Below, piece by piece: positions 50,813 to 58,142 of a DNA stretch of 64,000 bases. A program made the translations under genes and the position numbers. Position 1 is the first letter of the stretch, and every line of letters begins with the position of its first letter. The stretch is from Naegleria gruberi (taxonomy: Eukaryota), in NCBI GenBank assembly GCA_000004985.1, contig GG738896.1; one strand, 5' to 3'. Below the pieces are notes generated by a model that made no database searches, was not told the DNA's origin, and was given only the letters and a program-made list of their open reading frames with translations.

Positions 50813-51703
50813 GATGATGCTATTTTTTTGCTATTCTCACGGAATGAACAAAATGATGATGAAAAATTATTATTAGGTGTGATGATGAACCTATTATTCT
50901 ATTATTTTGTGAGGATGTATTATTTACAAACTAATGGAATAAATATTAATGAAGAAGATATGAGGAGGTTCTTTTTTTAAAAATTAAAACAATGAAATAA
51001 ATCGTGCGCACTCATCACATAATTTTTTTGAATTTAAATTTTAAAATTGAATTATAAAACCGAATATTCCTATTAATCTTTCTCCTTTTCCACTGCCAGT
51101 TGATGAGATTGATGTTGAACATTCTGTTGTGGCTATTATGATTGCTTCAATAAATGACATTCTTGGTTCATCAAAAGGAAACCAAAAAGGTCCAACACGG
51201 CCATCCTTAAATAAGTGTTTAAATGGAGCATCTCACCTAAAGAGTCAAGGCCAATTGTGTGTTTATTGCCTTAACATGAGTTTGAAATTGCCAAAGACAG
51301 AATTCAAAACAACGGATTTCATTTTTCCCGCCAACATGGAACTCTTATTAAGGAACCATAGCTATTGCCATCGGTACCAAATCGGACAAGATCCCTCCTT
51401 AATATTTTAATGTTGTCTGACTGAAAGGAAGCATAGGATGATGATCTCTGTGGCAAGCCACTAACCTCAATCAATCAAATTCCTCAGTCCTCACAATGAG
51501 GTGAGGAGGAGTATCGACTGGTTAGTGTTCTTCCTTGCTTGTTAACAAAGAGTGCGGAAAGGATAAATTAAAGGAAATTAGCTTCTTGTTTGGAATGAGG
51601 CAAATGTCCTTCTTGATGCTCTTTGCGTTTCTTGTTTGGAATTTTTACACTCACTAACCATTTTATTAAAAAAACAAACAAGATCTGCTGCAGTGGAATT
51701 TAT

Positions 51704-52411
51704 ATGACTCAAAGTAGTGCAATACAGCAACAAGAAGTGGTGGCTAAAAGGCAAACAACAACATCATCATCTCTGAACTCCAACAACATGACTGTTGGAT
51801 CCATTGAAAGTGTCAACCTTAAGCTTGACATGGACATTTCGCCAAAGAAGGTTGTAAATAGAAAAAAGTCTCCAACTAATAAGACACATGTATCATCTTC
51901 ATCAATAACCATGTGGCCACATGAATCAAACTCTGTATTATCCTCTTCTGATATTTGTTCATCGAGTTCATCTCCCAGTAATACAACAACATCTAACAAC
52001 AACATGGATCATCACAAGATTAAAAAGTCTCGGAAAACCATCAAGTACGAAACACATGTTTTTACATGCAATGACGAACCACTAGTAGCATCAAAAAGAA
52101 AACTTATTGCCAAGTATGATTTGTTACGAGTGCTGCATTTACCTCAAACTTTGGCAAGTCAGGTACTGGGGTGTAGTTTCTCAACATTGAAGAGAAGATT
52201 CTACGAATCGAAAGAGGACTTGGGAATTGAGAAATGGCCTCAGTTTTATCAGGAAGTGAGGCATTTACCAATATTCGAGTACATTTATCCAATGTCTCTA
52301 ACATTTATTTTGAATCCTGTAAATAGACACAAAAAAACATCTTATTCAGACTTGACACCTCCGTACATTTCTGACTCTGAGGTGAGGAATCATATGGAAT
52401 ATCCAAACTAG
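51704..52411 (+). CDS. Divergent RWP-RK-like domain protein, a paralogue of the 19190 gene, with a Ser/Asn-rich N-terminus.
   Basis: Track ORF 51623..52411, first ATG at 51704. 'KYDLLRVLHLPQTLASQVLGCSFSTLKRRFYESKEDLGIEKWPQ' parallels '...YFNAPQVMAARLLNVSVSTLKRRFYEMYEGRWPYQK' of the 19190 gene. RWP is replaced by KWP. Confidence 0.4.
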   Translation: MTQSSAIQQQEVVAKRQTTTSSSLNSNNMTVGSIESVNLKLDMDISPKKVVNRKKSPTNKTHVSSSSITMWPHESNSVLSSSDICSSSSSPSNTTTSNNNMDHHKIKKSRKTIKYETHVFTCNDEPLVASKRKLIAKYDLLRVLHLPQTLASQVLGCSFSTLKRRFYESKEDLGIEKWPQFYQEVRHLPIFEYIYPMSLTFILNPVNRHKKTSYSDLTPPYISDSEVRNHMEYPN

Positions 52412-52687
52412 CAAAGTCATGCAGATATGTGGAGAGAACAATTTTGATCTGGAGCTAAATTATTAACGTCGCTTATATCGAAAAGACCTGAGAGACGAGG
52501 TCTACAACCACTAAGTGGTAGCCTGCCTGTGGTAGGCAGAGAGGTATTAACCCAGATAATGAACCTGGATGTGACAACAGGTCCAAAACCTTTTCTTAAT
52601 AATTCCAATTTTTCCAATAGTGAAAGTGGAATAGTATCTACTGTTGAGAGGTATCTAGGTACAGAAAGATCTGGAGCTAAATATCAT

Positions 52688-54777
52688 TTATTCAACAAAA
52701 TCTTTCAAACACTTGATGTTATCAGCAATAACATTTACATTTGTATCAGATTTAGGATAAAAACAGAAGAAACGAGTAGTAATATGTTCTGCTTGTGGAA
52801 CGACATAGTAAGGAGAAGCAGTAGTTGGAACACCAGGTGCCTTGTTAACTTCACAAATCATAACACAACGCAAATTACTGACATTACCAAATTGAGATTT
52901 GGCCCAAGAAGTACCCATTCTTGAATAACCAAAGCTAGTAGCTGATTCTCTGGCCATGTATACCCCAGGCCCGTATGCTGCGCCAGTGGTCATGAGCTTG
53001 GTATTGGAAGCATTGACCAAACCATTTCTAAGAATGGAGTGGAAGTTTTCGATGGCTGAACCATGGAATGCCCAGTCTATAATTTTTTTAAAAATTAATT
53101 GCATAATAATACTTACAAGAACCATACTTCTTTCTGTTTTGAGAGAAGGTGGCAGCCTTTTCTGGGTTATCCATCATCATTATGTATTGATATTGAGTTT
53201 GCATTTCTTGAATTCTCTTCTTTTCGGGCATTTTTACAATAGCACTGTTCAATAGTTTTAAATATAAAAATAAACATTCCAACTTACCATCTCTTACAAC
53301 TCAATAGCCATCTCAAAATTTCATAAGCCTCAGGATGTAAAAACTTTCTGAGTTCAGATTCATTTTCACAGTGATTTTTCATTTCAGCAATAGAAGGAAG
53401 TCTGTCGAGAGCTTGTACAACTGAATTAAAGTTCTTTGTGGATCCCTTTATCAAATATTCTGGGAATGGATCGAAAATGAGTTCCTTTCTACCACTGGTA
53501 GCTGCTGAATAGGCCATACTCACCATGATATCGACGACGTCTCCATTTTCTAAAATATCAGTGTGAATAGATGAGGGACAAATGACAATTGGAATGGAAT
53601 TGCATACACCAAGTTCGATATACTCAAATTGGCATTTGAATTTTGTACAAATAACAGGTCTATTTTCTTGTGAAACAGGGAGCAAATCGTGGCACTCAAT
53701 AGAATCATCACAACCACAACAAAAGTGATTACATGATTGTACTCTGAGTACAAGATAGGTCAACATTTCCAATATAAAGTTTGTCTTTGGTTCATGTCCT
53801 GAAACGAGAGCCTTATCGTAAGTGTACAAATTTTGTTGAATATATCCACATTCTCTCAACAATTCTTCGGCAGCCTCTGGAATAACATTGGTATAATACA
53901 AAGCAAGAGCTTTAGCTGTATGAATCTTCTTTTCCTTGAGGAATTTGCTAATAATTTCCTTTTTTTCCTTTTGAGTAGTCTTTGAACTCCATTGAGCTAA
54001 TTTCAAATCTGCAGCACCAAATCTAGTTGTCTTGTCAAACTTTAATTGCTCCCATCTAAAATCAATATATTTAGTGAGAACGTGTTCCATTTGTTCAGCA
54101 AAACCACTTCTCAAGTGAGCCAACTCTGGTTTGTATTGAACTCTTGGTGATGTGTCGTGAGTTAAATAATCTGGAGCAAAGTTAATTGACATGGTAAACC
54201 AATTGTTTTGAGAATTTATACCATACTCCTTTTTCATTTCAGTAGTCATGTCATCAACAATAACATTGAGTCTGACATTGTAAATTTGACTGATAAGAGA
54301 AACAAATTTGGTATCAAAATAAGTTTTTGCATCATTAACATGGCAAGTGAGTTGATCTTGCATTTCTCCATCTTCTTCAAAATCATCAACCATGTCATCA
54401 TCATCAAGGTCGAAAATCTTTTGACTATTTCCCTTTCCAGTACCAGGTGTTGGTGTTCCGACTTCATTCATCAAGTAGTCATCTCTCTTCTGGACGAGAC
54501 TATCCATGAAGGTTTTGATTGTATTTTCCAAACCATTTTGTATTTCAATATATTCCTCATTTCCATCATATGTTGCACAGATCAAATCTTCGGAAACTTT
54601 AACAATATGACAAAGAAACTCTTTCAACCCGAAAAAATCAACATTAATGTCCAACTCTAACTCTCCAGGACCAAAATTGACAATACGAAACGTTCTAACA
54701 ACAGGATCTTCACCCTTCTTGAACTCTCCAAGTAATTCAGAGAGACGTTCCTTTGTCAATACACTACTACTGGACAT
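52688..54777 (-). CDS. PARP6/PARP8-like mono-ADP-ribosyltransferase. Three exons: join(54777..53288, 53244..53117, 53076..52688).
   Basis: Track ORF 53284..54957 has its real ATG at 54777 ('MSSSSVLTKE...'). It encodes a Cys-rich central region 'CNHFCCGCDDSIECHDLLPVSQENRPVICTKFKCQFEY'. Its apparent stop is a donor, TG|GTAAGT at 53287. A 43-nt intron ends at the GAACAG acceptor at 53245. The next exon (within ORF 53088..53282) ends at T|GTAAGT at 53116. A 40-nt intron then leads into ORF 52688..53125. That ORF encodes the PARP catalytic signature 'WAFHGSAIENFHSILRNGL...TTGAAYGPGVYMARES...PYYVV' (the H-G-S ... Y ... Y/E ART triad region). All junctions are in phase. Confidence 0.5.
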
Positions 54778-55357: not shown

Positions 55358-55657
55358 ATGAAGAGAGGCAATCACTTGTTATTCCTAGTAGCATCAATAG
55401 TAGTAGTACTTGTTCTATTATTTTGCTCATCATCCGTAGAGTCACTGAATATCGGCAGCAAGTGCAACAAGCATCACAACAACAAACATTGCAGTAAAAA
55501 GCCGTGCAACATTAAATGTTCTACCAATTTGATGAGTAAGAACGGATGCCAACTATGTAAATGTTGTCCACCCTATCTTCACACTTGTAAATTGTACTGT
55601 AAGAAGGGTTATCAAACCAACAAGTATGGTTGTCAAATCTGCCAATGCATTCCATAG
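55358..55657 (+). CDS. Small secreted cysteine-rich peptide, 99 aa, with 16 Cys in the mature region.
   Basis: Signal peptide 'MKRGNHLLFLVASIVVVLVLLFCSSSVES'. The mature part is 'KCNKHHNNKHCSKKPCNIKCSTNLMSKNGCQLCKCCPPYLHTCKLYCKKGYQTNKYGCQICQCIP'. The motif (N/Y)GCQ(L/I)C(K/Q)C appears twice. Confidence 0.45.
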   Translation: MKRGNHLLFLVASIVVVLVLLFCSSSVESLNIGSKCNKHHNNKHCSKKPCNIKCSTNLMSKNGCQLCKCCPPYLHTCKLYCKKGYQTNKYGCQICQCIP

Positions 55658-55915: not shown

Positions 55916-58142
55916 ATGTCCAACCCATCAATTGGCAGCAATCACACTGCCCAGAGACGTTTACTTGTACATTTAAATCATTTACTCCCTTCAAGTCAAT
56001 CAGCCGATCTGATTGAATCTAACGTTGTAAGAGGATTGACATCATACAATGATGAAGGTGATCGTTACAGTAGTATTTCCTATAATTATAAACATACGTT
56101 TGATGTTAGGAAAATGACTTCATTCCTCAGTCCTAGCTTTGATAAAAAGGAAATGTATAAATTCCTTGATACACCACTCATGCTTCATAAGAGTATCAAC
56201 ATTACTAAGGAAGAGGCAAGAGAAGTTGCCTTGAAACAAGTTATATTCCTATGTCAATCTGGATATTTCAATGTAACAGATATGAAAAAGAATCCTGAAC
56301 TGTTTCTTCAAAGAATGGAAGCTGGAATTATTGATGCCTCAATGAATGTCAAGTTGGGTGTTCAATTACTTCTCTTTGCTGGTAGTATTATGAACTTGGG
56401 TACCAAGAAACATCATGATTTATACTTGAAAAGAGCAGAAAGATGTGAATTACCTGGTGCATTTGCAATGACAGAAATTGAACATGGAAGTGAGTATTTA
56501 AATTGATATTATTTTGAATATTCTAATGTATTCTAAAGGCAATGTTAGAGAATTGAAAACCACTGCCATATTTGATGAACAAACAAATGAATTCGTCCTC
56601 AATACACCAAACAAGGGAGCTATTAAATGGTGGCTCGGAAATGCTGCTTGTCATGCTACAATGGCAACTGTTTTTGCTCGACTCATTTTGAAAGGAAAGG
56701 ATTATGGTGTTCATGCTTTTCTTTGTCCAATTAGAGATCCAAAAAGTATGGAATTATTGCCAGGTGTCATTGCAGGAGATTGTGGTGATAAGATTGGATT
56801 GCATGGAGTTGATAATGGATTCCTAGAGTTTGAAAATGTCAGAATTCCATACGATAATTTATTGGATAGATTTGGTGGAATTGATTTAGAAAGCAAGTCA
56901 TACAAATCTGAATTTGATAGTGCAGGAAGAAGATTTGCAGCAGTTCTTGGAGAATTAATTACTGGAAGAGTTACCATTGTAAGTGGATCATTGAATTGCA
57001 GAAGAGTTGGATGCATGATTGCCACACGTTATGCAAGTCAGAGAACTCAATTTTCTGCAGGTAAAGAATTCCCAGAACAACCAATTCTCGATTACAAATC
57101 TCACAAAACAAGATTAATGCCAATAATTGCCTCTTCTTACGTTTTTGAGTTTATTAAGAGAAATGTTGTGAAAAAGTATTGTAGATTACATTTGGAAAAG
57201 GTTTCAGATGATGAATTGCAAGAAATTCATGCCCTTTCTGCTGGTGTAAAAGCTGCAATGTCTTGGGATACTCAAACTCATTTGCAAACATTGAGAGAAA
57301 TGTGTGGTGGACATGGTTATTCTGCATATAATCGTTTGGGAACTCTTCGTAATGATCACGATGTTTTGAAAACATTTGAGGGTGACAATACTGTATTAAT
57401 TCAACAATTAGGTGGATATTTATTGAAAGAATTCAGCAAGCAGTTTAGTGGTGAGCTGATATCAGATTCAGTTCAGTATATTAGAAAGCAAGTTGGTGGT
57501 ATGGCTCAAAGAAATCCACTCATTACCAGATTGTCAAGTAAGAAACATTTGAGAAACTCTGATTATCATTTGCAAGCTTTCGAGTATAGAACTGCAAAAT
57601 TATTACAAGAGTGTGCATTGGAAATTAATGTAAACAAGAAGAAACAAGGTATTTTCCGTGCATTCGGTGAATCTCTCCCTAAATTAATTAGATTAGGTAG
57701 AGCCTATGTTGAGCAAGTTGCCTTACACGATTATTTACATGGCATTGAACAAGTTCAAGATCCAGAACTTAAACCTATTTTGAAAATGATGGGAGACTTG
57801 TATGCTTTGGATATTATTTCTAAGAATGTTGGAGACTTTATTGACCTCATCAAGAAGAACAAACTCTCAGCCATTCACGATATGGTTGAATGGTTGTGTG
57901 AAGAATTGAGAGTTCATGCTGTTTCTCTTGTTGACTCATTTGGATTTCCTGATTTTCTATTGGATGCACCAATTGCTAAGAGAGATCATGGTAATTATGT
58001 CCATCACATTCTCAATTATTCTCTTACAAGAAATAAGGGTAATTCAGATTTGATTGGTAAAATGCAAACTGATGTAGTTATGAAGAGAAAGAACGTTGCA
58101 TCTGATGAAGATGTTAATCAAGTGATGGAAATAAATTTGTAA
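55916..58142 (+). CDS. ACOX: Acyl-CoA oxidase (peroxisomal ACOX family). Two exons, join(55916..56489, 56539..58142), with a 49-nt intron.
   Basis: Exon 1 is ORF 55916..56506 and ends '...PGAFAMTEIEHG' at the donor A|GTGAGT at 56490. The TTCTAAAG acceptor at 56538 joins in phase 1 to ORF 56514..58142, giving '[37 protein letters not shown]' (ACOX '[29 protein letters not shown]...IKWW'). The downstream FAD/acyl-CoA dehydrogenase signature is 'GGHGYSAYNRLGTLRNDHDVLKTFEGDNTVLIQQ'. Confidence 0.75.

What the first reader, a model, noticed from the sequence alone, without database searches (positions are those of the whole stretch)
52688..54777. PARP6/8-like ADP-ribosyltransferase assembled from three track ORFs through two 40-43-nt introns
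The 557-aa ORF ends ...LLSCKRW*. The TGGTAAGT there is a phase-2 donor, and the downstream 64-aa and 145-aa ORFs continue the frame. Together they yield an H-G-S ... Y ... YY PARP catalytic domain fused to a Cys-rich upstream region (CNHFCCGCDDSIECH...CTKFKCQFEY), typical of the PARP6/8 clade. The third triad position appears to be Y or I rather than E, which predicts mono-ART activity.
Basis: partly seen in the sequence, partly recalled or inferred. Interest (0 to 1): 0.5.

Follow-up and report, generated by a model that had tools for sequence, protein, structure and literature searches.

The report
Annotated Naegleria PARP6/8-type ADP-ribosyltransferase gene

Summary
On the minus strand, three exons (54777-53288, 53244-53117, 53076-52688) are joined across a 43-nt and a 40-nt GT..AG intron. 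They give an in-frame 668-aa protein.

That exact sequence is already in GenBank and UniProt as Naegleria gruberi NAEGRDRAFT_81181 (XP_002672704.1, D2VTM9, "Poly [ADP-ribose] polymerase"). Citarelli et al. 2010 already listed it as a Clade 6 PARP.

Both introns lie at the same codon and phase in the N. fowleri orthologue. A metagenomic relative encodes the same residues without introns.

Domain order:
- two RWD-like modules separated by an acidic disordered linker
- a degenerate UBA-like three-helix bundle
- the PARP6/8 C4 zinc finger (C353, C356, C377, C382)
- the PARP16-type helical extension
- the ART domain

The triad is H544-Y579-Y629 (H-Y-Y, no Glu). There is no C-terminal membrane anchor. 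The catalytic region is closer to human PARP6/8 than to PARP16. Mono-ADP-ribosyltransferase activity is inferred, not shown.

The parts
53288..54777 (-). Exon 1 (CDS nt 1-1490, residues 1-496 plus the first two bases of Cys497). The start ATG is at 54777-54775.
   Evidence: The N-terminus aligns with the N. fowleri and Willaertia orthologues from residue 1.
53245..53287 (-). Intron 1: 43 nt, GTAAGT...CAG, phase 2. If it were retained, TGG TAA would stop translation straight after exon 1, giving a protein without the ART domain.
   Evidence: Same position and phase in N. fowleri. Absent in the metagenomic relative L001.
53117..53244 (-). Exon 2 (128 nt, residues 497-539 plus the first base of Tyr540). 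It holds the start of the ART domain.
53077..53116 (-). Intron 2: 40 nt, GTAAGT...TAG, phase 1.
   Evidence: Same position and phase in N. fowleri. Absent in L001.
52688..53076 (-). Exon 3 (residues 540-668 plus the TAA stop at 52690-52688). It holds the ART core, with H544 (53065-53063), Y579 (52960-52958) and Y629 (52810-52808).
54460..54753 (-). Residues 9-106: first alpha/beta module (helix, five strands, long helix), RWD/UBC-like.
54361..54459 (-). Residues 107-139: acidic, predicted disordered linker (…DLDDDDMVDDFEEDGEMQ…).
   Evidence: pLDDT below 50 in both models. Partly conserved in N. fowleri, so it is coding and not an unrecognised intron.
54037..54354 (-). Residues 142-247: second RWD-like module. 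It carries the most conserved N-terminal motif, FAPDYLxHDxxPRxQYKPE.
53845..53973 (-). Residues 269-311: three-helix bundle, a degenerate UBA-like domain. The MGF loop is replaced by K-K-I.
   Evidence: It aligns with Pfam-significant UBA domains at the same position in family members P0055 and P0031. hhalign probability 77.7%, E 1.9e-5. No Pfam or PDB sequence hit of its own.
53578..53733 (-). Residues 349-400: Cys-rich region with the C4 zinc finger C353-x2-C356-x20-C377-x4-C382. Extra heterolobosean Cys at 349, 354, 392 and 400.
   Evidence: The four Cys are kept in all aligned homologues that cover each position. The motif is described for PARP6/8 homologues in PMC4245714 and as the C4* ZnF in PMC10450202.
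53299..53568 (-). Residues 404-493: helical extension (HE, Pfam ARTD15_N) packed against the ART domain.
   Evidence: PF18084 at 37.1 bits, residues 415-492. Aligned with the PARP16 HE in sequence and in structure.

Best explanation
The region is the Naegleria gruberi nuclear gene NAEGRDRAFT_81181. It has three exons and two very short spliceosomal introns, and it encodes a 668-aa cytosolic PARP6/8-type (Clade 6) ADP-ribosyltransferase.

Shown here:
- The exon structure and its conservation in relatives.
- The domain order: RWD-like, acidic linker, RWD-like, UBA-like helical bundle, C4 zinc finger, helical extension, ART.
- An intact NAD+-binding signature: H544-G545-S546, Y579, Y590.
- Tyr629 in place of the catalytic Glu.
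- No membrane anchor.

Inferred from established knowledge of H-Y-(non-Glu) PARPs (human PARP6, PARP8, PARP16, PARP10):
- The enzyme binds NAD+ in the His/Tyr pocket. Lacking the Glu needed for chain elongation, it transfers single ADP-ribose units to itself and to target proteins.
- The N-terminal RWD-like and UBA-like modules and the zinc finger, which are rigidly linked in the model, select partners. These partners are plausibly components of ubiquitin or ubiquitin-like pathways.
For: - Gene structure.
- Exact identity to XP_002672704.1 / D2VTM9.
- Both introns conserved in position and phase in N. fowleri.
- Intron-less homologue with the same junction residues.
- Pfam PARP and ARTD15_N above their gathering scores.
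- PARP16 best in PDB by sequence (E 1.8e-16) and by fold (TMt about 0.75).
- AF2 model with mean pLDDT 85.4.
- H544, G545, S546 and Y579 invariant or nearly so across 35 homologues, and the four zinc-finger Cys kept wherever the region is present.
- Higher similarity to human PARP6/8 than to PARP16.
- Direct BLASTP link to a fish PARP6-like protein over ZnF+HE+ART (E 2e-28).
- 2708 cluster representatives at E<=0.001, most aligning to residues ~330-650.
- Prior literature placing Naegleria_gruberi_81181 in Clade 6.
- No hydrophobic segment near the C-terminus (best 19-residue Kyte-Doolittle mean is 1.34, at residue 386).
Against: - No transcript data were available, so the junctions rest on comparative evidence and on the deposited model.
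- No biochemical data exist for this protein or any protist orthologue. I found no paper naming the locus tag or its accessions.
- UBA-likeness is only moderately supported, and the canonical ubiquitin-binding loop is not conserved.
- The loop at 564-572 is poorly modelled.
Confidence: 0.9

Rival explanations
1. It is a PARP16-type orthologue (an ER stress mono-ART) rather than a PARP6/8-type protein.
For: PARP16 is the only solved relative and the top hit by sequence and by fold. The triad is H-Y-Y as in PARP16.
Against: There is no C-terminal transmembrane helix. It has a long N-terminal extension with the PARP6/8 C4 finger and RWD-like modules. It scores roughly twice as high against human PARP6/8 as against PARP16 over the same region. 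PARP16 leads in the PDB searches, and no PARP6 or PARP8 chain appeared among the matches.
Confidence: 0.04
2. The protein is a catalytically dead scaffold: a pseudo-enzyme that uses the ART fold only for binding.
For: No activity data exist. The loop at 564-572 is poorly modelled. The catalytic Glu is missing.
Against: All NAD+-contacting signature residues (H544, G545, S546, Y579, Y590) are invariant or nearly so across distant homologues. This is the pattern of active H-Y-x mono-ARTs. Inactive PARPs such as PARP9 and PARP13 have lost the His (PMC2964712; and my own knowledge).
Confidence: 0.08
3. The main product is a truncated 497-aa protein from an unspliced transcript, with a stop right after exon 1. 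In that case the downstream ART exons would be little used.
For: The TGG TAA at the donor site would terminate the reading frame if intron 1 is retained. No RNA data were checked.
Against: Exons 2 and 3 are highly conserved at the protein level. Both introns have canonical GTAAGT...AG ends and are conserved in position and phase in N. fowleri. An intron-less relative encodes the full-length protein.
Confidence: 0.03

Closest known systems
Human PARP6 and PARP8 (ARTD17/ARTD16; Clade 6D)
   Same: Same order of modules: RWD-like N-terminal region with a disordered insertion, C4* zinc finger (CX2C...CX4C), helical extension, and an ART domain that ends ...TRFFxxY. No transmembrane helix. 40-43% identity over the HE/ART core. 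No catalytic Glu.
   Different: The triad is H-Y-Y rather than H-Y-I. The long Ser/Lys-rich insertion in the ART domain of PARP6/8 is absent. The finger spacing is X20, against the published X9-19. Heterolobosean members carry a UBA-like helical bundle between the second RWD-like module and the finger, and extra conserved Cys residues (C349, C354, C392, C400).
Human PARP16 (ARTD15; PDB 4F0D, 6HXS)
   Same: The HE+ART two-domain catalytic unit, by sequence (E 1.8e-16) and by fold (TMt about 0.75). H-Y-Y triad.
   Different: PARP16 has a C-terminal transmembrane anchor and no N-terminal RWD or zinc-finger region. The Naegleria protein is the reverse on both counts. Lower similarity than to PARP6/8.
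Protist and fungal PARP6/8 homologues fused to ubiquitin-related domains (UBA in Acanthamoeba and Trichomonas; UBCc in fungi, moss and Chlamydomonas; Perina et al. 2014)
   Same: The same ZnF+HE+ART core. Family members recovered here carry Pfam UBA (P0031, P0055) or UBCc (P0035-37, P0039, P0040) domains. The Naegleria three-helix segment sits where the UBA sits in those proteins.
   Different: The Naegleria segment does not reach any Pfam UBA threshold and lacks the MGF/MGY loop. There is no UBCc domain.
Naegleria gruberi paralogue 80022 and the orthologues in N. fowleri (FDP41_009185), N. lovaniensis (C9374_014664) and Willaertia magna (ABK040_013355)
   Same: The orthologues are 59-66% identical over the full length and have the same domain order. 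Two introns are shared with N. fowleri.
   Different: N. fowleri has three additional introns. The paralogue 80022 lies on another scaffold and was not examined beyond the published alignment.

Membership tests
PARP/ARTD (diphtheria-toxin-like ADP-ribosyltransferase) superfamily | PARP catalytic domain profile above the curated threshold | tested here: met
   PF00644 at 48.5 bits against a cut-off of 26.7, residues 513-596.
PARP/ARTD superfamily | ART fold | tested here: met
   The AF2 model (pLDDT 85.4) superposes on the PARP16 crystal structures, with TM 0.74-0.76 on target length and E about 3e-11. PARP1-4 catalytic domains follow as weaker hits.
PARP/ARTD superfamily | H-Y-[E/other] NAD+-binding triad with the H-G-S motif | tested here: met
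   H544-G545-S546 and Y579 are conserved across 35 homologues. The third position is Y629.
PARP/ARTD superfamily | NAD+-dependent ADP-ribosyl transfer activity | not testable with these tools
   Needs recombinant protein and a NAD+ auto-modification assay.
Clade 6 PARPs (PARP6/8/16) | Helical extension (former PfamB_2311, now ARTD15_N PF18084) directly N-terminal to the ART domain | tested here: met
   PF18084 at 37.1 bits against a cut-off of 26.3, residues 415-492. Structural match to the PARP16 HE+ART unit.
Clade 6 PARPs (PARP6/8/16) | Catalytic Glu replaced (predicted mono-ART) | tested here: met
   Y629 aligns with the Ile of human PARP6/8 (published alignment) and of fish PARP6-like proteins.
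PARP6/8 type | Cys-rich region with a CX2C-X(9-19)-CX4C putative zinc finger (C4*) upstream of the HE | tested here: met
   C353-x2-C356-x20-C377-x4-C382. All four Cys are kept in every homologue that covers each position. The spacing is one residue beyond the published range in N. gruberi and is X19 in N. fowleri. Zinc binding itself was not tested.
PARP6/8 type | RWD (E2-related) domain(s) N-terminal to the finger, interrupted or separated by a disordered insertion | tested here: inconclusive
PARP6/8 type | Closer in sequence to PARP6/8 than to PARP16 in the HE/ART core | tested here: met
   129 and 121 bits (43% and 40% identity) against 68 bits (30%) over Ng 464-623. This is a pairwise comparison only. 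No tree was built.
PARP6/8 type | H-Y-I triad as in the human enzymes | tested here: not met
   It is H-Y-Y. This is not a family-wide feature: many PARP6/8-type homologues with the finger also have Tyr at this position.
PARP16 type | C-terminal transmembrane anchor and no N-terminal extension | tested here: not met
   The most hydrophobic 19-residue window averages 1.34 and lies at residue 386, not at the C-terminus. About 400 residues precede the HE.

The most novel reading that the evidence does not exclude
The heterolobosean PARP6/8-type enzymes keep an ancestral arrangement in which two RWD-like modules and a now degenerate UBA domain are wired to an H-Y-Y mono-ART. That would mean the last eukaryotic common ancestor's PARP6/8 was a reader or modifier of ubiquitin-pathway proteins, and that the H-Y-I triad of vertebrate PARP6/8 is derived. 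The UBA-like segment and the tandem RWD reading in Naegleria are, as far as I found, not described in the papers I read.
Probability: 0.35. Interest if true: 0.25.

Novelty: already known. Interest (0 to 1): 0.12.

Why it matters
As a gene, it adds nothing new. The model has been public since the 2010 N. gruberi genome release, and Citarelli et al. 2010 analysed it as a Clade 6 PARP.

Its modest value lies elsewhere. It shows that the first-stage reader can reconstruct short-intron eukaryotic genes accurately from raw sequence. It also gives a compact, well-folding, low-disorder PARP6/8-type protein from a free-living relative of the pathogen N. fowleri. Such a protein could serve as a tractable model for the poorly understood RWD-ZnF-HE-ART architecture.

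Tried and rejected
Querying residues 333-668 alone recovered 32 homologues.
2. The afdb50 fold library was unavailable. I therefore made no direct structural comparison with the AlphaFold models of human PARP6/8.
3. Pfam scans of the isolated N-terminal pieces found nothing meaningful.
4. A PDB search with a profile of the UBA-like segment gave no significant hit. The best relevant hit was the UBA-like domain 2dal at E 0.89.
5. Foldseek of the N-terminal model against the PDB gave nothing below E 0.01.
6. A literature search for the locus tag and accessions found no paper.
7. I considered and rejected the idea that the disordered stretch at 107-139 is an unrecognised intron. It is in frame and partly conserved in N. 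fowleri.
8. I considered and rejected the GTGAGT at about 53530 as a splice donor. It lies inside the conserved VDIMVSMAYSAA segment, which aligns with PARP16.
9. The plus-strand ORFs that overlap the gene (for example 52529-52924 and 54208-54660) are antisense to conserved coding sequence. I take them as spurious.

Full report
**Observation.** The minus strand between 54957 and 52688 carries three ORFs in different frames: 557, 64 and 145 aa. The first in-frame ATG is at 54777. Joining 54777-53288, 53244-53117 and 53076-52688 removes two introns. One is 43 nt (GTAAGTTGG...GAACAG, phase 2). The other is 40 nt (GTAAGTATT...ATTATAG, phase 1). The result is a 2007-nt CDS with no frame break, encoding 668 aa. 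All coordinates and quoted peptide strings in the finding are correct.

**Is the splicing real?** Four independent lines say yes.
- The alignment with human PARP16 runs without a break from residue 415 to 623, across both junctions at residues 497 and 540.
- The N. fowleri orthologous locus (L002) has introns at exactly the same codons and phases: "...STNR|W*" and "...KKYGS|CKF". Its introns are longer, and it has three extra introns elsewhere.
- A metagenomic heterolobosean contig (L001, ENA ERZ27315067) encodes the equivalent of residues 166-668 as one uninterrupted ORF. It has the same junction residues...YKRCALL... and ...KKYGSYWAFHGS....
- The spliced product is letter-for-letter identical to GenBank EFC39960.1 / XP_002672704.1, NAEGRDRAFT_81181, UniProt D2VTM9 "Poly [ADP-ribose] polymerase" of Naegleria gruberi.

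The window is therefore N. gruberi genomic DNA. The contig on record is 331,721 bp, and the JGI model is estExt_fgeneshNG_pg.C_520143. I had no transcript data.

**What the protein is.**
- Pfam finds the PARP catalytic domain (48.5 bits, cut-off 26.7) and the ARTD15_N helical domain (37.1 bits, cut-off 26.3).
- PARP16 is the best solved relative by sequence (E 1.8e-16).
- PARP16 is also the best by fold. The AF2 model has mean pLDDT 85.4, and Foldseek gives TM 0.74-0.76 on target length with E about 3e-11. PARP1-4 catalytic domains follow far behind.
- An exhaustive HMMER search finds 2708 cluster representatives at E<=0.001 and 251 at E<=1e-30. Most align to residues ~330-650, which is the finger+HE+ART module. 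A few align from residue ~80 onward.
- Named homologues include JGI "poly [ADP-ribose] polymerase 6/8", an Arcella PARP and fish "PARP6-like" proteins. A direct BLASTP against the fish protein gives E 2e-28 from the finger to the C-terminus.

**PARP6/8 type or PARP16 type?**
- Over residues 464-623 the protein is 43% and 40% identical to human PARP6 and PARP8 (129 and 121 bits), and 30% identical to PARP16 (68 bits). The human fragments came from the Citarelli supplement and from the PDB alignment.
- It has the CX2C...CX4C finger: C353, C356, C377 and C382 are kept in every homologue that covers each position. Perina et al. 2014 (PMC4245714) describe this motif as the hallmark of PARP6/8 homologues in all supergroups. 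Suskiewicz et al. 2023 (PMC10450202) call it the C4* ZnF.
- It has no C-terminal hydrophobic helix, whereas PARP16 is tail-anchored.
- A separate AF2 model of residues 1-403 (pLDDT 84.2) shows two alpha/beta modules (9-106 and 142-247) separated by an acidic disordered stretch (107-139).
- That fold support is only moderate. Foldseek found nothing significant and Pfam found nothing.

**Triad.** H544 (FHGS), Y579 (GVYMA) and Y629 (SPYYVV) form the triad. Y579 aligns with PARP16 Y182. In the published Clade 6 alignment, Y629 aligns with the Ile of "NIWV" in human PARP6 and "EIWV" in PARP8. In my alignment it aligns with the Ile of fish PARP6-like proteins. The triad is thus H-Y-Y. From general knowledge this is the PARP16 configuration, while human PARP6/8 are H-Y-I. 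Either way the Glu needed for chain elongation is missing. H544, G545, S546, Y579 and Y590 are invariant or nearly so among 35 homologues, which argues for a functional NAD+ pocket. Mono-ADP-ribosyltransferase activity is an inference from characterised H-Y-x PARPs, not a result.

**An extra detail.** Residues 269-311 form a three-helix bundle and are strongly conserved among heteroloboseans (ALALYYxNxxPExAxELLxECG). In multiple alignments this segment lines up with Pfam-significant UBA domains that occupy the same position in other family members: P0055 at 39.6 bits and P0031 at 29.8 bits. A profile-profile comparison gives 77.7% probability and E 1.9e-5 over 40 columns. The segment has no Pfam or PDB sequence hit of its own, and the MGF loop is replaced by K-K-I. 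I rate it a probable degenerate UBA-like domain. This fits Perina et al.'s observation of UBA, UBCc and RWD fusions in PARP6/8 homologues.

**Prior knowledge.** Citarelli et al. 2010 (PMC2964712) list Naegleria_gruberi_81181 among their PARPs. They align its residues 480-654 with human PARP6, PARP8 and PARP16 in the Clade 6 alignment, and they state that Clade 6 occurs in Heterolobosea. A paralogue, 80022, is also listed. No paper in the searchable library mentions the locus tag or its accessions, and no functional work on it was found.

**Verdict.** There are two small corrections: the triad is H-Y-Y, and the triad Tyr is Y579. The gene, its exact model and its clade were already public, so novelty is "already known" and interest is low. 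The modest additions made here are the intron conservation pattern across Heterolobosea, the moderately supported two-module RWD-like reading of the N-terminus, and the degenerate UBA-like bundle.

Noticed in passing
window 51623-52411 (+): A 262-aa ORF, convergent with the PARP gene and ending 277 nt from its stop. It has a Ser/Asn-rich N-terminal half and an RWP-RK-like DNA-binding motif (Pfam PF02042, E 6e-5, 23.3 bits, below the 29.3 cut-off). It is a possible RWP-RK transcription factor. The listed start codon is TTG, so the true start or exon structure is unknown.
   Followed up: partly
window 55358-55657 (+): A 99-aa ORF with a hydrophobic N-terminus and Cys-rich repeats that match the Antistasin family (PF02822, E 3e-11, above cut-off). 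It is a small, probably secreted, antistasin-type protein encoded just upstream of the PARP gene and divergent from it.
   Followed up: partly
window 55916-56506 (+): An ORF fragment with weak similarity to the acyl-CoA oxidase N-terminal domain (PF14749, E 2.4e-4, below cut-off). It is probably the first exon of an acyl-CoA oxidase gene that continues downstream.
   Followed up: no
L002 6001-8456 (N. fowleri VFQX01000068.1) and L001 (ENA ERZ27315067 k141_319347): Intron turnover among orthologues. N. fowleri has five introns, two of them shared with N. gruberi at identical codon and phase. The metagenomic relative lacks both shared introns but has one at the position of N. gruberi residue 165/166, where N. 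gruberi has none.
   Followed up: partly
window 53845-53973 (-), residues 269-311 of the protein: A conserved three-helix bundle that lines up with true UBA domains of other PARP6/8-type proteins (hhalign probability 77.7%) but has lost the MGF loop. It is probably a degenerate UBA-like domain. I did not see it described for Naegleria in the papers I read.
   Followed up: yes
homologues P0052 (938 aa) and P0035-P0040: The same ZnF+HE+ART core occurs fused to an N-terminal C2 domain (P0052, PF00168 at 77 bits) and to C-terminal UBCc domains (PF00179) in other, unnamed environmental eukaryotes. This shows how freely the core is recombined.
   Followed up: no
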